DNA of 32,000 nt from Bacillota bacterium. Its GTDB lineage: Bacteria; Bacillota; Desulfotomaculia; Desulfotomaculales; Desulfallaceae. Location of the stretch: contig JAEXOR010000011.1 of NCBI GenBank assembly GCA_023439185.1, positions 233,168 to 265,167 of the forward strand, given 5' to 3'. Under the pieces are notes generated by a model, which did no database searches, was not told the DNA's origin, and saw nothing but the letters and a program-made list of their open reading frames with translations. Position numbers and translations under genes: made by a program. This document shows positions 24,958 through 32,000 of the stretch, in pieces; the first letter of the stretch is position 1, and each line of letters begins with the position of its first letter.

Positions 24958-24994
24958 TTTTCAATTCCCCAAAGGGAATTATTTTTGTTTTGAA
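24958..24994 (-). CRISPR. Orphan CRISPR repeat (3 mismatches to the array consensus) attached to the second leader copy
   Basis: TTTTCAATTCCCCAAAGGGAATTATTTTTGTTTTGAA versus the consensus GTTTCAATTCCCCAAGGGGAATTATTTTTGTTTTGAC. Confidence 0.85.
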
Positions 24995-25234
24995 AGCGGG
25001 GATGTTCAAACCTTGTGCAACAAGGGCTCTCGAAGTGGCTTTTGAGCAACTTCGAGAAATTGCCGCATTTTGATAAATGCCAGGATTTTATCAAGCAACG
25101 CTAACTATATCATCTAGCATTTACCACCTCTACAGTTCGCCATCCACAAGGCTTTCCTGCATATTAACTTTAAAAAATACTTTTCGAGCATCTCCCGGGT
25201 TTTCTGCACACCAAAAGTGCTCGATGTCTGAAAA
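24995..25234 (-). repeat. Second copy of the CRISPR leader (duplicate of 27788-28029)
   Basis: By manual alignment there are about 25 differences over ~240 nt, with a 49-nt identical core (25091-25139 = 27884-27932). It has the same orientation and the same junction to a repeat. Confidence 0.85.
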
Positions 25235-25258
25235 CTTTACCATTGATGACCTTTGTTA

Positions 25259-25534
25259 TTAAATTATATAGATACCGTCACCAAAGGGATCAAACCCGCC
25301 CAACCGTTCAACTTTCCCGGTGCAAAGCTTGCATTGGCGGTAAAAAATTACACTATCCAGATTCCTCTTAATTATTTTCTCCAGCTTACATTTTAATATC
25401 AGGTAATCTTCCCTGCGCAAACGGCACTCAAAAACACTATATTGCACCCGCACCCCATAGTCTTTAAGAATTTTATGAACCAGATTTCTGCGAAGGTCAT
25501 CGCTGATGTCGTACGTGATTACTATATTTTCCAT
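25259..25534 (-). CDS. cas2: Cas2
   Basis: 91 aa. I.TYDIS.D..R..V.K.L..YG.RVQYSVFEC.L is the classic Cas2 N-terminal beta-alpha-beta pattern. The start overlaps the cas4-cas1 stop by 1 nt. Confidence 0.9.
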   Translation of the reverse strand: MENIVITYDISDDLRRNLVHKILKDYGVRVQYSVFECRLRREDYLILKCKLEKIIKRNLDSVIFYRQCKLCTGKVERLGGFDPFGDGIYII

Positions 25535-27168
25535 TAACGCACCATAACAGATATATACTTATCCAACTCACCCTGCAATACTTTCCCCCAAAAACGGGCC
25601 TGCAGCTCAAAGATACGGAGGTAAGAAAGCCGGTAATCAAATACAGGGTGTGTTATTTCCTGCCGCCTTCGTTCTTCATAACACTTATAGAATTTTTTAC
25701 GTCCCTGGTCTTTTAAGAAACAACCGCCCAAACCATATGAAAAATCTTCTTTCCCTATACTCCCGCGATTTATGGCTGAAAGCACCGCGGAATCAGCCAC
25801 CACCGGACGGAACTCTTCCATAAGATCCAGTGCCAGAGCGGGCCTCCCATAAACTGGTTGATGCAAAAACCCTATGTACGGATCAAGTCCGGTTACCTGA
25901 ATTGCTGAATGCATATCCTTGGCAAGTAATGTATAGGCAAAGCTTAACAACGCATTGACCGGATCTCTGGGCGGCCTGCGGTTGCGGTGGTTAAATTGAA
26001 AATTACATTCAGTTTTGAGCAGCATTGAGAAAGCGCGAAAATACTCTCTGGCGGCCATCCCCTCAACGCCGAGCAATTGCTCCAAGCTACCGGCATTGTT
26101 TGCCGCCACAATGCTCAGTCCAATACTGCGTATGGATGATTCTATTAATTTGACCTGTAATTTGCGGTTGTAACGTAAAAGTAAAGCACGCATGTTGGAT
26201 AGTTTTCCGGTCACAAAACATCTGGCCAAAGCAATGCGCTTATCTTGATCAAAGTAACAATTGAATTGCGCCAGACGAACAAGACAGTTACGGGATGCCG
26301 GCGGCTGCACAATGCCCCGGTAATTTCCGTTAATCGTCAGGTAAACCACATCAATGCCGTAGTCCAGCAGGGTTTTCATGGCCGGGGTTGATAGGTTTAC
26401 GCCGCCTACCAGCACCACCTGATCTATGTTGCATAAAGGTAATTCAGTCAACACCCGGTCTTCCTTTTCCACTACCAGGCGCAAACCCTTCTTTTTTACT
26501 CTGGAACCCGGTTCATCCACATATAGAATCCGGCCCAGGTTTATCGCGGGCACGGGGCGTGAAGGCTTTTTCCCGCTGCCTTGTAAAAAGTTTGTTTCCA
26601 TAGGCAGGCAACGTGATTCAAGAGCACAACCGTTACAGCGACCATCCGCTGCCGGTGGCGGTATAATGCCGGATTCAATAATATCCAGCGCTTTTCTAAC
26701 TGTATTCTCGACAAGTACCCGCAAGTCTTCCTGAAAGTAAACTTCCCGGCGGCTACGTGAGCCCGCATAGTAAATGTATCCTTTTTCACTGCAACAACTT
26801 AATTTTTCTTCCAGCATCATAGCCTGAGCGCAAAGCTGCACGTCATCGCTCAAGCTTTCTTTCATGGTGCCTTTTTTATATTCCACAGGGTAATAATAAC
26901 CGTCCCGTTCTTCAAGACAATCAACAACACCTATAAGCTTGAGGTGCTCCGAAGTTATTTCTATGGAACGCGCTTGTTTAATTGAATCCCTTGTGACGCT
27001 TCCGCGGCGCTCCCGTTTTTCTTCCTGGAGTCTACCTTCAAGCAGATGGGCATTGCTGTCTTCGGCTCCTTCAATAACCCGGTAATAAAAATTTCGCGGA
27101 CAATATAGAATTTCCGCAACAGCAGAAACAGGGAGGTATATTGGTTCTTTTTGCGACTCTGCTTCCAT
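25534..27168 (-). CDS. cas1: Cas4-Cas1 fusion protein
   Basis: The N-terminal Cas4 domain has YCPRNFYY (first Cys), the RecB-type D..E.K motif (VDCLEE...PVEYKKG) and the C-terminal Cys triad CNGCALESRC. A full Cas1 follows (LYVDEPGSRVKKKG..L.V, ...NALLSFAYTLL..., EEFRPVVADSAVL). Confidence 0.9.
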   Translation of the reverse strand: MEAESQKEPIYLPVSAVAEILYCPRNFYYRVIEGAEDSNAHLLEGRLQEEKRERRGSVTRDSIKQARSIEITSEHLKLIGVVDCLEERDGYYYPVEYKKGTMKESLSDDVQLCAQAMMLEEKLSCCSEKGYIYYAGSRSRREVYFQEDLRVLVENTVRKALDIIESGIIPPPAADGRCNGCALESRCLPMETNFLQGSGKKPSRPVPAINLGRILYVDEPGSRVKKKGLRLVVEKEDRVLTELPLCNIDQVVLVGGVNLSTPAMKTLLDYGIDVVYLTINGNYRGIVQPPASRNCLVRLAQFNCYFDQDKRIALARCFVTGKLSNMRALLLRYNRKLQVKLIESSIRSIGLSIVAANNAGSLEQLLGVEGMAAREYFRAFSMLLKTECNFQFNHRNRRPPRDPVNALLSFAYTLLAKDMHSAIQVTGLDPYIGFLHQPVYGRPALALDLMEEFRPVVADSAVLSAINRGSIGKEDFSYGLGGCFLKDQGRKKFYKCYEERRRQEITHPVFDYRLSYLRIFELQARFWGKVLQGELDKYISVMVR

Positions 27169-27287: not shown

Positions 27288-27787
27288 AACGCAATTCCCA
27301 AAAGGAAATTATTTTTGTTTTGCCATGCAATTCCACAGCACAAGGAACAAACGTCTGCCGGAAGTATTTCAATTCCTCAAGGGGAATTATTTTTGTTTTG
27401 ACATAGCCAAGAAACTCACACCTGGCACGCGTGTCATGGTACAGTTTCAATTCCCCAAGGGGAATTATTTTTGTTTTGACAGGTAGGTAAGCGTAAGTGG
27501 ACTGACCCAAAGAAATATCCGTTTCAATTCCCCAAGGGGAATTATTTTTGTTTTGACTGTCGGGAGCGTTGTTGGCCACCTCTATTCCATGATGGAGTTT
27601 CAATTCCCCAAGGGGAATTATTTTTGTTTTGACTTCGATTAAAAAGAATGTCCAGAGGCTCCATATTATTGTTTCAATTCCCCAAGGGGAATTATTTTTG
27701 TTTTGACGTGTGGTAAAAACTGCCGTTGCTGCCGTGAAGAGATATGCGGTGTTTCAATTCCCCAAGGGGAATTATTTTTGTTTTGAC
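27288..27787 (-). CRISPR. CRISPR array: 7 repeats of 37 nt and 6 spacers (41, 41, 40, 39, 37, 43 nt)
   Basis: Repeats are at 27288, 27366, 27444, 27521, 27597, 27671 and 27751. Five are identical (GTTTCAATTCCCCAAGGGGAATTATTTTTGTTTTGAC on the + strand). The repeat at 27366 has 2 mismatches and the one at 27288 is strongly degenerate. On the minus strand the repeat is GTCAAAACAAAAATAATTCCCCTTGGGGAATTGAAAC. Its 3' end is ATTGAAAC, a typical 8-nt crRNA handle, and it contains a 7-bp stem AATTCCC/GGGAATT. Together with the degenerate repeat lying distal to the leader, this sets transcription on the minus strand. Confidence 0.95.
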
Positions 27788-28029
27788 AGCGGGGATGTTC
27801 AAGCCTTGTGCAACAAGGGCTCCCAAAGCAGTTTTCGAGCACCTTCGACAAATTGCTATATTTTTACAAATAACAGGATTTGGTCAAGCAACGCTAACTA
27901 TATCATCTAGCATTTACCACCTCTACAGTTCGTCATCCACAAGGCTTTCCCTGTATATTAACTTTCAAAAATACTCTTCGAGCATCTCCCGGGTTTTTTG
28001 CACACCAAAAGTGCTCGATGTCTGACAAT
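27788..28029 (-). promoter_or_regulatory. CRISPR leader with a candidate extended -10 promoter
   Basis: Non-coding and AT-rich, it abuts the intact first repeat at 27751-27787. It contains the palindrome CCTTGTgcaACAAGG next to the repeat. On the minus strand there is a TGaTATAGT element (27905-27897) inside the 49-nt core conserved in both leader copies. Confidence 0.7.
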
Positions 28030-28078
28030 TTTAAAAACCTCTTGCCTTGATCCAAGTTTGGTTTCTGATTACAGCGAC

Positions 28079-29728
28079 TTATTCAACAATCACGCATTCA
28101 CCTATAACATAGGGGTTTTCATGCTGCTCATTAATTGAGCGCCTATCAATCATAGCCACAGTTATAGTATCCAGACGGTTATCCATATGTGCCTGACATA
28201 CGTAAGTAACAAAGTACTGCAAAAGTGTAGTGCCTCCGGTAAGGTTAACGTATAAATGATGAAACGGCAGTCCTTCAATATATTCTTTGGCCTGATTGAA
28301 TATCCGGGATAATTCATTAAACCCGCTAAATGGGTCACCCACCTCTACTACACAAACTTCCCCGGTATACCCGGCTTTATTTAATATTGTGTCTAAATAG
28401 TTCTTTTTTACTTCATCTGAGGTTATAACAAGCAACTGATCCGGTTTTACATGGTGCAGGGCGGTATACAATAACCCAGGTGATTTACCTAGCGGGGTTA
28501 TCATAGTTATGGTTGAGCCGGTCTGTTGCAGGTCTGTCACAGGCACAGACAAGCCCTTTTCTTTATTAAAGATTTCTTTTAATATGGCAAAACACTCCAG
28601 CGTTTCGCTCATAACTTTGTGAGACGACCTGACGCTTTCTTTACTCCACCCTGTGTGAATCACATCATTACGTAGCCCACTTAATTGTGACCATAATTTT
28701 CCTATAGTTGTATCTCGATCAGACTTGAGTTTATGCGCTATGGTTTCCCGTATATCCCGTTGAAAAACACCGATACACTGGTCATTACTACTTATAACAT
28801 AAGAAATTATCAATTCACGCATCATCGATAAGGCCTGAGGGGCATAGTTATGTTCTACGTACCAGCGGACCATATCCAAATGACTGACTAAATTTAGAGG
28901 ATCGGACTTATCGTTAGTTTCAGAAAAAGCGGAAAACTTACTAATTATGTTTTCAATCAAGAGGCCAAAAGGAACCGCCCACTCTCTGACGTCCCTGTCC
29001 AGCAGTTCACGTTGTTCTGAATAACCGGTGTAATATTTTAATTTACCGGTTTCTGCTATTACCTCAAATGGCCGATTGGTAAATAGGGCCCGGGAAACAT
29101 TTTCAATAATAGTACCAAACCTGTTAAGCTCTCTTCGCGCCGGACCTTGCTCTTCTTTGGCTTTCCGCTGGGCATCTGCCAGAAGGGCGCTTATTTCCTG
29201 AGCACTGCCGTGTTTAACAAAAGAATTAACACCAATAATCCAATCCAACAGCGAACAAAAACCGGTTAAATCAAATACCGGACTTTCATTTTGGTCATTT
29301 TTGGCTTCATATGCCCCGTAATACAATGCCTTGATATTAACGTTTTTAACAAATTTTAGATAAGCAATACTTAAAAAACTAATCAGCGGTAGTGAACGGA
29401 AGCTATATGTTATATCAAACACCATGCTGTCGCCTTCGTCAATCTCGCGTACCAGAATGTTAAAAATATCCCATAGCTCAATAGTGCTTTTACCGTCCGG
29501 TATATCAACGGGGATTGGCTCAGTGTGATTCCGGTTAATTAATTCTTCCCTTAAGCTGTTCCAATGCTTGGCTGTTGCTTCCTTTGTTTTAACTACCATT
29601 ATTTTCTTGGGTCTGGTCAACTCTGCGGCCATAACCGGAAAGTAACGGGTATGCACTTTTTTTTCGCCGAGTACATAATAAGTTTCCTTATAATCATTTA
29701 TTCCAATAAAGGTTACAAGTTTGGGCAT
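28079..29728 (-). CDS. CRISPR ancillary protein: Csx1/Csx2 (TM1812, DxTHG-family) CARF-like N-domain, HEPN motif and an additional C-terminal CARF domain
   Basis: The N-terminus MPKLVTFIGINDYKETYY...ELWDIF...VFDITYSFRSLP matches the TM1812/DxTHG family, with the motif degenerated (DITYSFRS where DxTHGFRS is expected). R-N-D-V-I-H (aa 353-358, nt 28655-28672) fits the HEPN Rx4H motif. Residues ~405-549 (ITPLGKSPGLLYTAL...PDQLLVITSDE...VNLTGGTTLLQY) match a classic CARF Rossmann-like pattern. Confidence 0.75.
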   Translation of the reverse strand: MPKLVTFIGINDYKETYYVLGEKKVHTRYFPVMAAELTRPKKIMVVKTKEATAKHWNSLREELINRNHTEPIPVDIPDGKSTIELWDIFNILVREIDEGDSMVFDITYSFRSLPLISFLSIAYLKFVKNVNIKALYYGAYEAKNDQNESPVFDLTGFCSLLDWIIGVNSFVKHGSAQEISALLADAQRKAKEEQGPARRELNRFGTIIENVSRALFTNRPFEVIAETGKLKYYTGYSEQRELLDRDVREWAVPFGLLIENIISKFSAFSETNDKSDPLNLVSHLDMVRWYVEHNYAPQALSMMRELIISYVISSNDQCIGVFQRDIRETIAHKLKSDRDTTIGKLWSQLSGLRNDVIHTGWSKESVRSSHKVMSETLECFAILKEIFNKEKGLSVPVTDLQQTGSTITMITPLGKSPGLLYTALHHVKPDQLLVITSDEVKKNYLDTILNKAGYTGEVCVVEVGDPFSGFNELSRIFNQAKEYIEGLPFHHLYVNLTGGTTLLQYFVTYVCQAHMDNRLDTITVAMIDRRSINEQHENPYVIGECVIVE

Positions 29729-29785: not shown

Positions 29786-30601
29786 TTATCTGATCAATAA
29801 CCTGCTTTGCCCCATACCCATTGTGGTTTTGTAGCCTATGCCAGCGTAAAATGCAAACTCCGCCAGCATATGCGCTGCTCGGGCCATGATATCTTCATTA
29901 TGATGCTTGATGCCGTAACCGCATTGGCCAACAAAACCAACCTGTTTATAGTGGCTGAAATGCATTATTTTAGTGATTATTCTGCAATCACTCGGGAAAA
30001 GGTTTTCGGCAATGAAACATAAAAAGTTATCCCCCAGATGCACGGGTGAATAATAATTCCACTTTTGCAGCAAGTTGGCGAATACTTTATGCGGGTCCGG
30101 CAGGGGATAGTTCATGCCCTGGCTTCTGAATGTCGTAGGCGAGTAAAATTGCAGGCTGAGCTTGTTCCTGATGTTTTCCTCCGACACGTAATAATCATAA
30201 ATATCCGTAAAGGAGGAACTGTCGGCCCAGGGATGGCGCTTTTGATCAAAGGTAAAACCGCAGACCCGCATTTCAGTTCCGGCCAGATTTATATCATACG
30301 GCAATGCCGGCGCCCAAATGTTTTGCATCCAAAGCGAAAGGGCGGACGACAAGGAGGTTACTCTAAAAGAGTACTCTTCACCGGGGAACAGCCTCCAGCG
30401 GTTTTCCTCAAAGGCTGTTTTTCCCCAAAGGGGCGATATGGTAAATGGCTTTAGGGAAGCCGGCTTGTGCAATTCATCCGCCAGCGCGGGATCCAAATCC
30501 CGTACCTTATCCAGGAAAAAAGCATGCAGCACCTGACCCAAAGCGGGAGGAACCAATACCTCTTGCTTTACTTGTAGAAATATGACACAACTGGCCAGCA
30601 A
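29786..30601 (-). CDS. cas6: Cas6 crRNA endoribonuclease
   Basis: LKPFTISPL motif and the C-terminal glycine-rich loop GIGYKTTMGMGQ (GxGx5GxG). The preferred start is TTG 30601 after GGAGGA, right behind the csm5 stop; the 295-aa track ORF is an upstream extension overlapping csm5. Confidence 0.85.
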   Translation of the reverse strand: MLASCVIFLQVKQEVLVPPALGQVLHAFFLDKVRDLDPALADELHKPASLKPFTISPLWGKTAFEENRWRLFPGEEYSFRVTSLSSALSLWMQNIWAPALPYDINLAGTEMRVCGFTFDQKRHPWADSSSFTDIYDYYVSEENIRNKLSLQFYSPTTFRSQGMNYPLPDPHKVFANLLQKWNYYSPVHLGDNFLCFIAENLFPSDCRIITKIMHFSHYKQVGFVGQCGYGIKHHNEDIMARAAHMLAEFAFYAGIGYKTTMGMGQSRLLIR

Positions 30602-30620
30602 TAGAAATTCCTCCGGTTTT

Positions 30621-31811
30621 TTAATTGATATAAAGATCTGTCCACCCCAAGGGCCAGCGGGGAACATCTCCATCCATCACTGCCCGGCGCGATTTGGGGA
30701 AAACAAATTGGCCCCGGGGTTCGAAAAGGGCATCCCTGACCGAACGCCGCAGCTCAGGAGGCAGCAGCATCAGCAAACTGGTTCCGGATAAACCCGCCCC
30801 CCAACCCATACGCATTCCGGCAGCTTTTTGATCATAGAAATTTCTCATTTCCATTGCGCCGGGTCCGGAAACCGCGGCCCAGTATTCCCTTTCAAAACGC
30901 CAAATATCATGCGCAAAACTATGCACCAAATTAAATAGTTCTTCCAGGGTATTAAAGGGCAGTATTCCTTTGGTCTGTTGAGAAAAGTCTCGCATAATAT
31001 TTTCATCCAAAGTAACGCTGAACTGCAACTCGGCGCCGGGTAAGATTATTTCCACATAAATGGGAGTTTTCAAGTAGATATCCCGCTCTCCGGTAAGACT
31101 TAGAACTTGCACTTCCACGAGGGGCAGAGCGTCTTTATCCATCGGCGTGGTGTCGGAAACCTTCAATACCCGCATATAGTCTTTTTGCTGACCGGTGGCT
31201 CCTCGTTTTGCATAACCACCCGGTACCGGCAAGTCAAAATGCTGCAGCAGTTCCGTTTCAATTTTATTGGCCATGCTGCTTTTGACTTTGTCTTTAAACC
31301 ATGGTTTTGAGCGCAGCCTGTCGTCAGTATTGTTGAATTCCCGGAGTTTCTGCTCAATTGAATTAACAAAATACTGTTGAAAGTCCCGTGGGCTTTCCGC
31401 CTGCATCCTTTTTAAAAGGTTATATAATACAGCGGTTCTAATGGCGCCTTTAATAGATGAACCGGGGATGAAGGGACAACCGAAAACATCCCGCATAAAT
31501 GGCCGCATCCGCAGCGGGGTACGGCTTAACCTTGTATTACAATGGTAATCCGAGCTTTGCCGCAAAAAGCGTTCATTCAGTAATTGCCGGGAGCGCAAAA
31601 ATTCCTCCAGGTTGAAACGGCGGCCCTGCCGGCCTATCTCCAGAGACAGCTCATCCAGCTTGTTTTTATCCAACATGGCACGCCCCAGCTTGGCCTCGCC
31701 TACCACATAACAACGCCCGTTGAAAACCATCTGCTCCAGAGGGGTGAGTGCCTGGGTTTTACCGCCTATATGTACCGGACTGATTGTTTTTAGCACTATT
31801 CTTTCCCGCAT
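30621..31811 (-). CDS. csm5: Type III RAMP protein, Csm5-like
   Basis: LKTISPVHIGG near the N-terminus, the RAMP motif PFIPGSSIKGAIRTAV and the C-terminal G-rich loop RMGWGAGLSG. The preferred start is ATG 31811 after GGAGGTGA, overlapping the upstream stop as TAATG; the 420-aa track ORF is an extension. Confidence 0.75.
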   Translation of the reverse strand: MRERIVLKTISPVHIGGKTQALTPLEQMVFNGRCYVVGEAKLGRAMLDKNKLDELSLEIGRQGRRFNLEEFLRSRQLLNERFLRQSSDYHCNTRLSRTPLRMRPFMRDVFGCPFIPGSSIKGAIRTAVLYNLLKRMQAESPRDFQQYFVNSIEQKLREFNNTDDRLRSKPWFKDKVKSSMANKIETELLQHFDLPVPGGYAKRGATGQQKDYMRVLKVSDTTPMDKDALPLVEVQVLSLTGERDIYLKTPIYVEIILPGAELQFSVTLDENIMRDFSQQTKGILPFNTLEELFNLVHSFAHDIWRFEREYWAAVSGPGAMEMRNFYDQKAAGMRMGWGAGLSGTSLLMLLPPELRRSVRDALFEPRGQFVFPKSRRAVMDGDVPRWPLGWTDLYIN

Positions 31812-32000
31812 TACCGGTTCACCTCCACCGGCACGGACATGGCATAACCGTACCTGTAAAGCGGATGCGTCCCGCGATCCCAATTGGCGGGTGTTACGTC
31901 AGCCATGCATCCCGCGGGCAAATACGGCAGCACCGAACCCTCGGCAAACATTTTGCATGACTTTCTTCGCACCTGCCGAATTGTTTCCGGTGAGGCGGCC
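31811..32000 (-). CDS. 3' end (partial, continues off right edge) of the upstream gene of the type III operon; identity not determinable from 62 residues
   Basis: An open frame runs from the window edge to the TAA at 31813-31811 (...GSVLPYLPAGCMADVTPANWDRGTHPLYRYGYAMSVPVEVNR*) and is translationally coupled to csm5. Its position corresponds to csm4 in type III-A operons, but no motif is visible. Confidence 0.45.
   Translation of the reverse strand, partial: AASPETIRQVRRKSCKMFAEGSVLPYLPAGCMADVTPANWDRGTHPLYRYGYAMSVPVEVNR

What the first reader, a model, noticed from the sequence alone, without database searches (positions are those of the whole stretch)
28079..29728. Triple-domain CARF(DxTHG-degenerate)-HEPN-CARF protein between cas6 and the CRISPR leader
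Seen in sequence:
- Residues 1-~395 look like a complete Csx1/Csx2 (TM1812/DxTHG) protein with an RNDVIH HEPN motif. Its signature DxTHGFRS motif reads DITYSFRS.
- Residues ~405-549 form a second, canonical-looking CARF module (TPLGKSPGLL...VITSDE...NLTGGTT).

Established knowledge: CARF domains sense cyclic oligoadenylates made by Cas10, HEPN domains are the RNase effectors, and stand-alone CARF proteins can act as ring nucleases.

Inference: this is either a dual-sensor effector or an effector fused to its own off-switch (a ring-nuclease-like CARF). Signal sensing may have been transferred from the degenerate N-terminal site to the C-terminal one. I do not recognise this arrangement as a standard described architecture.
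Basis: partly seen in the sequence, partly recalled or inferred. Interest (0 to 1): 0.75.

Follow-up and report, generated by a model that had tools for sequence, protein, structure and literature searches.

The report
Csx1 RNase with extra C-terminal CARF
This gene encodes a type III CRISPR "alarm-activated" RNase (Csx1) carrying a second signal-binding domain at its tail, an architecture already catalogued but never tested, whose tail domain most likely damps or switches off the alarm signal.

Summary
ORF 28079-29728 (minus strand, 549 aa) is CARF / helical HEPN (RNDVIH) / flexible linker / second CARF. It lies between cas6 and the CRISPR leader.

The architecture is not new. PADLOC holds three full-length models named "CARF2--CARF_HEPN_CARF"; the best matches at E = 1.9e-168 over residues 1-549. 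The C-terminal module occurs in about 400 clusters at 50% identity and at least 57 species. No biochemical study was found in the searchable literature.

The N-terminal site is not degenerate. G->S is common, and D105, T107 and R111 (the cA4-contacting Arg) are kept. Only the pocket His is Tyr, which also occurs in two-domain relatives.

The C-terminal domain is a distinct CARF clade: G-x-S-x-G, N-x-TGGT[TS] with no Lys, and a D-R-R...EQ...P lid. It also exists as a stand-alone ~145-aa gene next to csx1 or cas10, and fused to CYTH-CARF-HD proteins. Known ring nucleases show the same mobility. The closest structure for the whole protein is the self-limiting Csx1-Crn2 fusion.

Best reading: a cOA-activated RNase with a built-in signal attenuator (ring nuclease or sponge). 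This is inferred, not shown. It is a new member of a known, uncharacterised kind, of moderate interest.

The parts
28079..29728 (-). csx1-type gene encoding the 549-aa CARF-HEPN-CARF protein (stop codon 28079-28081)
   Evidence: ORF list. PADLOC CARF2--CARF_HEPN_CARF at E 1.9e-168, full length. TIGR02221 at 126.5 bits.
29210..29728 (-). N-terminal CARF domain (aa 1-173). This is the presumed activating cOA sensor. Motif I is F-I-G9-I-N.
   Evidence: AF2 secondary structure. A profile of the family matches Csx1-Crn2 8y6z at E 4.9e-27. Foldseek gives 8y7g at 2.8e-17.
29393..29416 (-). Motif II of the N-terminal CARF, D105-I-T-Y108-S-F-R111-S (the DxTHGFRS variant)
   Evidence: It aligns to D126-L-T-H129-G-L-R132 of Marinitoga Csx1-Crn2. 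R132 contacts cA4. H129W abolishes activation.
28565..29200 (-). Helical HTH + HEPN region (aa 177-388)
   Evidence: All-helical in the AF2 model. Aligned to the HTH/HEPN region of 8y6z.
28655..28672 (-). HEPN catalytic motif R353-N-D-V-I-H358
   Evidence: R353, N354 and H358 are invariant in 17 three-domain homologues. They align to the RN..AH motif of 8y6z.
28514..28564 (-). Flexible linker (aa 389-405)
   Evidence: pLDDT is below 50 for residues 390-394 and 396-403. The length is variable in the alignment.
28082..28513 (-). C-terminal CARF module (aa 406-549). Motif I is G414-K-S416-P-G418. Then T436-S437 and D465-P. Motif II is N495-L-T-G-G-T500-T501. The lid is D528-R-R530...E534-Q535...P539...G543-E.
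   Evidence: AF2 gives pLDDT 93.3. All Foldseek hits are CARF domains. The PDB profile hit is Can2 8bao at 1.9e-6. Conservation was measured across 163 sequences.
27788..28078 (-). CRISPR leader, directly downstream of the gene's stop codon
   Evidence: Sequence. Its orientation follows from the degenerate distal repeats and the ATTGAAAC repeat end.
27288..27787 (-). CRISPR array: 7 repeats of 37 nt (GTCAAAACAAAAATAATTCCCCTTGGGGAATTGAAAC) and 6 spacers of 37-43 nt. The last two repeats are degenerate.
   Evidence: No matches are expected by chance.
29786..30673 (-). cas6
   Evidence: Pfam CRISPR_Cas6 at 1.4e-21; TIGR01877 at 69 bits.
30621..31883 (-). csm5 (type III RAMP). The rest of the type III operon, including cas10, lies beyond the window end.
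   Evidence: TIGR01899 at 100.2 bits.
25534..27168 (-). cas4-cas1 fusion
   Evidence: NF049935 Cas4g/Cas1g at 628.7 bits.
25259..25534 (-). cas2 (91 aa)
   Evidence: ORF. It clearly resembles the Cas2 of the D. acetoxidans locus.

Best explanation
The gene encodes a Csx1-family (TM1812/DxTHG, 'CARF2') ancillary RNase of a type III CRISPR system, carrying a built-in regulator of its own signal.

Proposed mechanism:
1. Cas10 makes cyclic oligoadenylate, probably cA4, when the complex meets target RNA.
2. cOA binds the dimeric N-terminal CARF site (G9, T107, R111).
3. Binding switches on the HEPN RNase (R353/N354/H358).
4. The C-terminal CARF module hangs on a 14-residue flexible linker and pairs with a second copy to form another cOA pocket. 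The pocket is built from G414/S416, TGGT500-T501 and the D528-R-R530...Q535...P539 lid.
5. This second site captures cOA and degrades it (ring nuclease) or holds it (sponge). That would set an activation threshold and end the response, as the Crn2 domain does in Csx1-Crn2.

Shown: the architecture, the folds, the family membership, the conservation of both sites, the autonomy and mobility of the module, and its linkage to type III loci.

Inferred: cOA binding by the module, its attenuating role, catalysis versus sequestration, and the identity of the cOA species.

The confidence of 0.55 refers to the attenuator role. The identity of the protein as a Csx1 of the catalogued CARF-HEPN-CARF class is near certain (about 0.95).
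For: Identity. PADLOC CARF2--CARF_HEPN_CARF matches at E 1.9e-168 over the full length. TIGR02221 scores above its cut-off. The family profile matches Csx1-Crn2 8y6z at 4.9e-27. The best fold match for the whole protein is the self-limiting Csx1-Crn2 fusion, 8y7g at 2.8e-17.

The module is a CARF domain with an intact ligand site.
- Every top Foldseek hit is a CARF domain: Can2, TtCsm6, Cam1, Cad1 and Crn1.
- Near-invariant residues sit at the canonical cOA-contact elements. These are motif I after beta1, motif II after beta4 and the loop after beta5, as defined for TtCsm6/Crn1 in PMC10897365.
- Counts across 163 sequences: G414 163/163, S/T416 153, G498 and G499 163, T500 160, D528 162, R530 161, Q535 162, P539 161.

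The module is autonomous and mobile, like known ring nucleases.
- It exists as stand-alone ~141-160-aa proteins that start at beta1.
- L005 has csx1, a 6-nt gap, the module, then cas10.
- L011 and L012 have csx1 followed by the module; L014 has the module followed by csx1.
- L007 has the module inside a csm operon, next to a Cas_APE2256 CARF effector.
- It is also fused to the CYTH-CARF-HD effector class (PDLC01929 at 5.9e-153).

The same C-terminal slot of CARF2 Csx1 holds known or predicted ring nucleases in sister architectures. PADLOC has models for CARF_HEPN_CSX3, _CSX16 and _CSX20. Reviews note fusions to Crn2, Crn3, Csx16, Csx20 and Unk01 (PMC8284326).

Context. Orthologues sit directly beside cmr operons with no other CARF or ring-nuclease gene seen. 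Cas10 lies within 10 kb of most fused genes, and 23 of 27 neighbouring Cas10 ORFs carry GGDD. The recurrent small ORFs in 32 such loci are Cmr5, Csm2, Csm3, Cas2 or unknown, and none is a known ring nuclease.
Against: No assay exists for any member, so cOA binding and cleavage by the module are both unproven.

The motif-II Lys is absent. It is essential in Crn1 and TtCsm6 (the TtCsm6 K137A variant loses cA4 binding and cleavage), and it is present as GGTK in Can2 and Card1. In this family the position is always Thr or Ser (150 T, 13 S of 163). The chemistry would therefore have to differ, for example by using R530.

The nearest sequence relatives of the module are CARF4 sensors (Can2/Card1), which lack intrinsic ring-nuclease activity (PMC12409355).

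Many stand-alone copies in Abditibacteriota are not near CRISPR genes. The family is therefore not exclusively a type III regulator.

The absence of other ring nucleases in these loci was not rigorously established, because 77 singleton ORFs were not resolved.

cas10 of this particular locus lies outside the window.
Confidence: 0.55

Rival explanations
1. Dual-sensor effector. The C-terminal CARF is a second allosteric input rather than an attenuator. Binding there would be required for, or would potentiate, HEPN activation. It might do so by driving dimer-of-dimer or filament assembly, or by sensing a different cOA species.
For: - The module's closest sequence relatives are sensor CARFs of Can2/Card1.
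- It lacks the motif-II Lys of CARF ring nucleases.
- In Csx1-Crn2 the C-terminal domain is also needed for tetramer formation and for full RNase activity (PMC11317161).
- cOA-driven stacking of CARF dimers is known for Csx15 and Cat1 (PMC13148439).
Against: - A pure sensor is not expected to exist as a free-standing 145-aa protein with no effector domain beside csx1 or cas10.
- The slot it occupies in CARF2 Csx1 is otherwise filled by ring nucleases.
- The N-terminal site is fully maintained, so a second activating sensor is not obviously needed.
Confidence: 0.2
2. Sensor hand-over. The N-terminal CARF site is degenerate in this protein, and activation now runs through the C-terminal CARF.
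For: - Y108 replaces the pocket His that equals H129 of Csx1-Crn2, where H129W abolishes cA4 activation.
- The query also differs from its nearest relatives in motif I (G-I-N instead of G-T-G).
- His at this position is less frequent in three-domain proteins (42/91) than in two-domain proteins (18/24). Fisher p = 0.02, with unequal sampling and no phylogenetic correction.
Against: - D105, T107 and R111 (the cA4-inserting Arg) are each >=96% conserved in three-domain proteins, and motif-I G9 is 80/91 (88%); all four are present here.
- The nearest three-domain relatives keep His.
- Tyr at this position occurs in two-domain proteins, whose only sensor is this site (P0096, P0109, P0117).
- The C-terminal module is joined by a disordered linker. 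That makes a poor lever for allosteric control of HEPN.
Confidence: 0.07
3. Ligand-independent structural domain. The C-terminal CARF only mediates oligomerisation or stability and no longer binds nucleotides.
For: The Crn2 domain of Csx1-Crn2 has such a structural role in addition to catalysis. The module lacks the canonical Lys.
Against: The most strongly conserved residues are small and polar. They are located at the canonical CARF ligand loops, not on a hydrophobic interface. Stand-alone copies keep them all.
Confidence: 0.05

Closest known systems
Csx1-Crn2 self-limiting ribonuclease (Marinitoga; PDB 8y6z/8y7g; PMC7293037, PMC11317161)
   Same: The CARF-HTH-HEPN body comes from the same Csx1 subfamily (profile E 4.9e-27; best Foldseek hit). 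Motif II is of the same D-x-T-H-G-x-R type. Both carry an extra cOA-binding domain at the C-terminus, after HEPN.
   Different: There the C-terminal domain is Crn2 (DUF1874, a His-dependent ring nuclease of viral origin). Here it is a CARF Rossmann domain with no similarity to Crn2. Its activity is untested.
Catalogued class 'CARF2--CARF_HEPN_CARF' (PADLOC-DB models PDLC01838/01839/01840; I take the names to come from the 2020 CARF census of Makarova et al., which I could not read)
   Same: Full-length match at E 1.9e-168 covering all 518 profile positions. This protein is a member.
   Different: Nothing structural differs. The class has only a bioinformatic label, and I found no functional study.
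CARF ring nucleases: Crn1 (Sso2081, Sis0455, Sis0811) and the TtCsm6 CARF domain
   Same: Same fold (TtCsm6 TM 0.71; Sso2081 at E 1e-4). Motif I G-x-S resembles G58-T59-S60. A conserved loop after beta5 sits where the TtCsm6 mobile lid is.
   Different: Lys in motif II (T-x-G-x-K) is replaced by an invariant Thr/Ser. There was no sequence-level hit to CARF7/Crn1 models. The module has its own D-R-R...EQ...P signature.
Can2/Card1/Can1 CARF domains (CARF4)
   Same: These are the best sequence-level relatives of the module (8bao at 1.9e-6, Card1 at 4.6e-3; Pfam CARF_Card1). They share the N-x-TGGT core of motif II.
   Different: Those proteins have GGTK and a PD-(D/E)xK nuclease, and they act as sensors. 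Here there is no nuclease domain after the CARF, and Lys is absent.
Csm6-2 (CARF-HEPN-CARF-HEPN; PMC11229360)
   Same: It contains two CARF domains in one chain around a HEPN domain.
   Different: Csm6-2 is a ~795-aa pseudo-dimer with a second HEPN, and its two CARFs form one cA6 site. The protein here has no second HEPN, and its second CARF is on a flexible tether.
Csx15, Csx16, Csx20, Crn3/Csx3 and Crn4/Unk01 (small extrinsic regulators, also found fused to Csx1)
   Same: Small type III-linked proteins found either alone or fused to the C-terminus of effectors. Csx15 shows that such a protein can be a sponge rather than an enzyme.
   Different: The module matches none of their models. It is a canonical six-stranded CARF rather than those folds.

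Membership tests
Csx1 (TM1812/DxTHG type; TIGR02221; 'CARF2') | Whole-protein score above the curated family cut-off | tested here: met
   TIGR02221 scores 126.5 bits against a cut-off of 76.25. PADLOC Csx1 models match at 1e-71 to 1e-97.
Csx1 (TM1812/DxTHG type; TIGR02221; 'CARF2') | N-terminal CARF with motif II D-x-T-H-G-x-R | tested here: inconclusive
   The motif is D-I-T-Y-S-F-R. D, T and R are kept, H is Tyr, and G is Ser (a common variant). The TIGR02549 DxTHG model scores 20.5 against a cut-off of 21.
Csx1 (TM1812/DxTHG type; TIGR02221; 'CARF2') | HEPN domain with an R-x4-6-H motif | tested here: met
   RNDVIH at 353-358 is invariant in homologues and aligns to the catalytic motif of 8y6z.
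Csx1 (TM1812/DxTHG type; TIGR02221; 'CARF2') | Encoded in or beside a type III CRISPR locus | tested here: met
   csm5 and cas6 are upstream, and the CRISPR array and cas4-cas1-cas2 are downstream. Orthologues sit next to cmr1-6. cas10 of this locus is outside the window.
Csx1 (TM1812/DxTHG type; TIGR02221; 'CARF2') | cA4-activated RNase activity | not testable with these tools
   Needs biochemistry.
PADLOC class CARF2--CARF_HEPN_CARF | End-to-end match to the three-domain profile | tested here: met
   PDLC01839 matches at E 1.9e-168, residues 1-549 against profile positions 1-518 of 518. PDLC01840 and PDLC01838 also match over the full length.
CARF domain superfamily (C-terminal module) | Rossmann-like beta-alpha fold matching solved CARF domains | tested here: met
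   The model has pLDDT 93.3. Foldseek gives Can2 at 6e-7, TtCsm6 at TM 0.71, and also Cad1, Cam1 and Crn1. Pfam CARF_Card1 scores above its cut-off.
CARF domain superfamily (C-terminal module) | Conserved motif I (after beta1) and motif II (after beta4) at the ligand site | tested here: met
   G414-x-S416-x-G418 and N495-x-T-G-G-T-T501 are near-invariant in 163 sequences.
CARF domain superfamily (C-terminal module) | Homodimer forming a cOA pocket; cOA binding | not testable with these tools
   Only single-chain prediction was available.
Crn1-type CARF ring nuclease (CARF7/Crf7) | Motif I G-[ST]-S | tested here: inconclusive
   The Ser is present (S/T in 153/163). The preceding residue is variable (L, M, T, A, N, or K here), not Ser/Thr.
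Crn1-type CARF ring nuclease (CARF7/Crf7) | Motif II T-x-G-x-K with an essential Lys | tested here: not met
   The position is Thr (150) or Ser (13) in 163/163 sequences, never Lys or Arg. The requirement for Lys comes from PMC10897365.
Crn1-type CARF ring nuclease (CARF7/Crf7) | Sequence membership in CARF7/Crn1 models | tested here: not met
   No CARF7/Crn1 model appears among the 25 best of 26 PADLOC hits to the module at E<=10. The best hits outside its own class are CARF4 and CARF1.
Crn1-type CARF ring nuclease (CARF7/Crf7) | Metal-independent cleavage of cA4 to A2>P | not testable with these tools
   Needs an HPLC or LC-MS assay.
Csx1-Crn2 fusion | C-terminal DUF1874/Crn2 domain with a catalytic His | tested here: not met
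   The profile match to 8y6z ends at chain residue 442, before the Crn2 domain (445-563). The C-terminal module is a CARF.
Csm6-2 | CARF-HEPN-CARF-HEPN in one ~795-aa chain | tested here: not met
   The protein ends after the second CARF at residue 549, with no second HEPN.

The most novel reading that the evidence does not exclude
The C-terminal module defines an unnamed family of type III signal attenuators, which would be a ninth ring-nuclease or sponge family beside Crn1-5, Csx15, Csx16 and Csx20. It is a canonical CARF that has replaced the motif-II Lys with Thr, and it uses a family-specific D-R-R...E-Q...P lid. It works either as a free ~145-aa protein beside csx1 or cas10, or fused to Csx1 and CYTH-CARF-HD effectors. 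It also has an orphan branch in Abditibacteriota, in one case next to rtcB. Surveys that searched only with models of the known families, and capped ring-nuclease length at 250 aa, would have missed it.
Probability: 0.4. Interest if true: 0.6.

Novelty: new member of a known kind. Interest (0 to 1): 0.4.

Why it matters
How type III CRISPR systems switch off their toxic cOA alarm decides whether an infected cell recovers or dies. Eight families of dedicated off-switch proteins were recognised by 2026. About a third of Csx1 loci encode a known one, which leaves many without an explanation.

If this CARF module degrades or sequesters cOA, it would account for the off-switch in a widespread set of loci: at least 57 species across many phyla. 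It would also show that a CARF site can do this without the canonical Lys, and it would add another self-limiting RNase design next to Csx1-Crn2. For this particular window the value is modest. The gene is a typical member of an already catalogued class, and the idea of a dead N-terminal sensor is not supported.

Tried and rejected
- **The CARF census could not be read.** Makarova et al. 2020 (PMC7498327 / 10.1093/nar/gkaa635) is not held. What its authors said about the CARF_HEPN_CARF class is therefore inferred from PADLOC model names and from reviews.
- **The source genome context was not recovered.** Only a 2.9-kb contig came back for the exact protein, and the genome scan did not contain the source species. 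cas10 of this locus was not seen, so orthologous loci were used instead.
- **The test for mutual exclusion with known ring nucleases was inconclusive.** I bundled 144 small ORFs from 32 loci into one PADLOC scan. The output lists only the 25 commonest families, all core Cmr/Csm subunits. Clustering plus a scan of 10 representatives found no known ring nuclease, but 77 singletons stay unresolved.
- **Rejected: Csx15/16/20/Csx3/Crn1 identity for the module.** There were no model hits.
- **Rejected: Csm6-2.** There is no second HEPN.
- **Rejected: G->S in DxTHG as a sign of decay.** It is common in two-domain Csx1.
- **Corrected: my first His-conservation comparison mixed redundant and non-redundant sets.** I repeated it at 50% non-redundancy. 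The difference remains but is weak (p = 0.02), and the two sets were sampled differently.
Full report

Yes. The window has an ATG-initiated ORF at 28079..29728 on the minus strand, encoding 549 aa.

The family assignments are significant:
- NCBIfam TIGR02221 (TM1812-family CRISPR protein) scores 126.5 bits against a cut-off of 76.25.
- The short DxTHG domain model just misses, at 20.5 against 21.
- Pfam sees a Card1-type CARF at residues 428-508, above its cut-off.

An AlphaFold2 model built on 17 homologues is confident, with mean pLDDT 86.3. It shows four segments: an alpha/beta domain at 1-173, an all-helical region at 177-388, a disordered linker at 390-403 and a second alpha/beta domain at 406-548.

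The context is as stated. On the minus strand the order is:
- csm5 (30621-31883)
- cas6 (29786-30673)
- this gene
- a 291-nt leader (27788-28078)
- seven 37-nt repeats (27288-27787)
- a cas4-cas1 fusion (25534-27168)
- cas2 (25259-25534)

The repeat ends in the canonical ATTGAAAC. The two repeats farthest from the gene are degenerate, which fixes the leader next to the gene's stop codon. cas10 lies beyond the window edge.

**2. What is the body of the protein?**

It is a Csx1 of the TM1812/DxTHG ("CARF2") type. A profile of the family matches the solved Marinitoga Csx1-Crn2 protein over residues 4-399 at E 4.9e-27. That protein is also the best structural match for the full model (8y7g, E 2.8e-17), followed by S. 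islandicus Csx1. The HEPN residues R353, N354 and H358 are invariant in the three-domain homologues.

**3. Is the architecture new?**

No. PADLOC-DB contains three separate full-length models named "CARF2--CARF_HEPN_CARF". The best one matches this protein at E 1.9e-168, from residue 1 to 549, over all 518 profile positions. The same library has sister models in which the third domain is Csx3, Csx16, Csx20 or an unknown domain.

An exhaustive search with the C-terminal module alone found 401 cluster representatives at 50% identity, 268 of them at E <= 1e-10. Most are 500-700-aa proteins with the module at the C-terminus. A deliberately narrow pattern scan of one genome per species found it in 57 species. 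These span Bacillota, Riflebacteria/Ozemobacteraceae, Binatia, Abditibacteriota, Chloroflexota, Planctomycetota, Myxococcota and Thermoplasmatales. The nearest named relatives (44-56% identity) are from Desulfolucanica, Desulfofarcimen, Desulfotomaculum and Desulfallas.

I found no paper in the searchable library that characterises such a protein. The only "CARF-HEPN-CARF" text hit is Csm6-2, which is CARF-HEPN-CARF-HEPN and a different thing. The CARF census that presumably defined the class is not held.

**4. Is the N-terminal sensor degenerate?**

Not in any strong sense.
- In the Csx1-Crn2/cA4 structure, motif II is described as TxGxR, with the Arg inserted into the cA4 ring; mutating it kills activity (PMC11317161).
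- The alignment maps D126-L-T128-H129-G130-L-R132 of that protein onto D105-I-T107-Y108-S109-F-R111 here. T and R are therefore kept.
- In 91 three-domain proteins made non-redundant at 50% identity, D105 is 87/91, T107 is 88/91 and R111 is 89/91.
- Gly->Ser is common in ordinary two-domain Csx1.

The His->Tyr change deserves respect. H129W, designed as a pocket-blocking mutation, abolished cA4 activation of M. piezophila Csx1-Crn2 (PMC7293037). But the closest three-domain relatives of the query keep His. Tyr also occurs in two-domain proteins that have no other sensor (P0096, P0109, P0117).

There is a weak statistical hint that this pocket position is freer in three-domain proteins: His in 42/91 against 18/24, Fisher p = 0.02. 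The two sets were sampled differently and phylogeny is not controlled. I read this, at most, as tuning of the affinity of the activating site. That would fit Csx1-Crn2, whose CARF site binds cA4 far more weakly than its Crn2 site.

**5. What is the C-terminal module?**

It is a bona fide but distinct CARF. Modelled alone it gives pLDDT 93.3 and pTM 0.88, with a beta-alpha-beta Rossmann-like topology. All top Foldseek hits are CARF domains: Can2 8bao at 6e-7, TtCsm6 at TM 0.71, EiCsm6, Cam1, Cad1, and Crn1/Sso2081 at 1e-4. At sequence level it is nearest to Can2 and Card1 (1.9e-6 and 4.6e-3). In PADLOC, outside its own three models, it is nearest to CARF4 and CARF1 at about 1e-5 to 1e-6. It gives no hit to Crn1/CARF7, Csx15, Csx16, Csx20 or Csx3.

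Across 163 diverse copies the following are near-invariant:
- G414 (163/163), S/T416 (153) and G418 (163)
- S437 (158)
- N495 (156), T497 (150), G498 and G499 (163 each), T500 (160) and T/S501 (163)
- D528 (162), R530 (161), Q535 (162) and P539 (161)

In the model these fall on the loop after beta1 (motif I), the loop after beta4 (motif II) and the segment after beta5. These are the three elements that bind and cleave cA4 in TtCsm6 and Crn1 (PMC10897365).

The striking difference is in motif II. The Lys (K137 in TtCsm6) is essential there for binding, and Can2 and Card1 have it as GGTK. In this family the position is never Lys or Arg.

**6. How does the module behave in genomes?**

It behaves as an autonomous part that is moved between effectors.
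- Free-standing 141-160-aa proteins begin with Met followed directly by beta1 and keep every motif. They hit no Pfam or NCBIfam family. In PADLOC they match only the tail of the CARF_HEPN_CARF models.
- In L005 the order is csx1 (a 419-aa CARF-HEPN), a 6-nt gap, the module, then cas10.
- In Syntrophomonas (L011, L012), csx1 is followed by the module. In L014 the order is reversed.
- In L007 the module sits inside a csm operon, just before a Cas_APE2256 CARF protein.
- Three proteins of about 1,020-1,070 aa carry it behind a CYTH-CARF-HD effector (PDLC01929 at 5.9e-153).

Fused genes usually have cas10 within 10 kb, and 23 of 27 such Cas10 ORFs show GGDD. The four without it include two cut by contig ends and two short ORFs. 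In D. acetoxidans and D. thermosapovorans the gene directly precedes cmr1-6, with no other CARF or ring-nuclease gene in view.

Occurring alone, split or fused at the C-terminus of cOA-activated effectors is the argument used for Crn2, Crn3, Csx16, Csx20 and Unk01/Crn4, several of which have since been confirmed.

**7. Most likely mechanism**

Cas10-made cOA, most likely cA4 given the Csx1 subfamily, binds the N-terminal CARF dimer and activates HEPN. The tethered C-terminal CARFs pair up, either within a dimer or between dimers as Crn2 does, to form a second pocket. That pocket removes cOA by cleavage or sequestration. This would set a threshold and limit the duration of RNase activity.

I put about 0.55 on this attenuator role. 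Within that, I do not choose between enzyme and sponge. The missing Lys and the Csx15 precedent (some members are sponges) keep both open. The invariant S416, D528 and R530 could supply an alternative catalytic set.

The rivals are a second activating sensor or assembly domain (0.2), hand-over of sensing from a dead N-terminal site (0.07) and a purely structural domain (0.05).

**8. Comparison with known systems, and novelty**

Functionally the closest known system is Csx1-Crn2, but membership fails because the third domain is not DUF1874. The module is not a Crn1 member either: the motif-II Lys was tested and is not met, and there are no model hits. It is not Csm6-2.

The protein is a member of Csx1 (CARF2) and of the catalogued CARF_HEPN_CARF class. 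The finding is therefore a new member of a known but uncharacterised kind.

The more novel reading is that the module is an unrecognised attenuator family. This remains open at a probability of about 0.4.

**9. Side observations**

- A second, roughly 90% identical copy of the leader, with a single degenerate repeat, lies just downstream of cas2.
- Stand-alone copies of the module in Abditibacteriota are not CRISPR-linked. In A. utsteinense one is divergent from rtcB.

Noticed in passing
window 24958-25258 (minus strand): A second copy of the CRISPR leader lies immediately downstream of cas2. About 245 nt align at roughly 90% identity to leader 27788-28078. It is followed by a single degenerate repeat (24958-24994, 3 mismatches). 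The adaptation genes cas4-cas1-cas2 are therefore flanked by two leaders, and one of them heads an array of just one repeat.
   Followed up: partly
L045 8252-10426 (Abditibacterium utsteinense); also L036, L039, L042-L047, L049, L051-L054, L059: Stand-alone ~144-153-aa copies of the C-terminal CARF module in Abditibacteriota have no Cas10 or Csx1 within 10 kb. In L045 the gene is divergent from an RtcB RNA-ligase gene (Pfam RtcB at 6.4e-80). This is an orphan, non-CRISPR branch of the family. It recalls orphan Csx15 and the CARF sensor of RtcR.
   Followed up: partly
P0158, P0242, P0253 (proteins): Three proteins of about 1,020-1,070 aa combine a CYTH-like N-terminus, a CARF7-type CARF and an HD domain (PADLOC CARF7--CARF_CYTH_HD at E 5.9e-153) with the same C-terminal CARF module. 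An unrelated effector class therefore carries the same add-on.
   Followed up: partly
L056 2140-3729 (Myxococcota MAG) and L064 433-4211 (Planctomycetota MAG): In L056 the module is at the N-terminus of a 529-aa ORF near cas10, and the rest of that ORF was not identified. In L064 a 1,194-aa ORF carries a Csx1-like part and a partial module, and it overlaps a second module ORF. This may be a frameshift or a larger fusion.
   Followed up: no
L002 4012-6334 and L004 1380-3857: In the Desulfofarcimen and Desulfallas loci, two tandem WYL-WCX regulator genes lie just upstream of the csx1(CARF-HEPN-CARF)-cmr operon. They may be transcriptional regulators of the system.
   Followed up: no
window 16395-22447 (minus strand): Outside the CRISPR region there are two sets of molybdopterin-dependent dehydrogenase subunits (FAD-binding, 2Fe-2S and MoCo-binding domains) and an IclR regulator gene (22487-23284). 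The 298-aa MoCoBD_2-only ORF at 20511-21407 looks like a truncated large subunit.
   Followed up: no
window 27288-27787: The spacers are long (37-43 nt). The terminal two repeats carry point changes: GGGG->GAGG with a final C->T in the sixth repeat, and heavier decay in the seventh. This is a small array of 6 spacers for a locus that has its own cas4-cas1-cas2.
   Followed up: no
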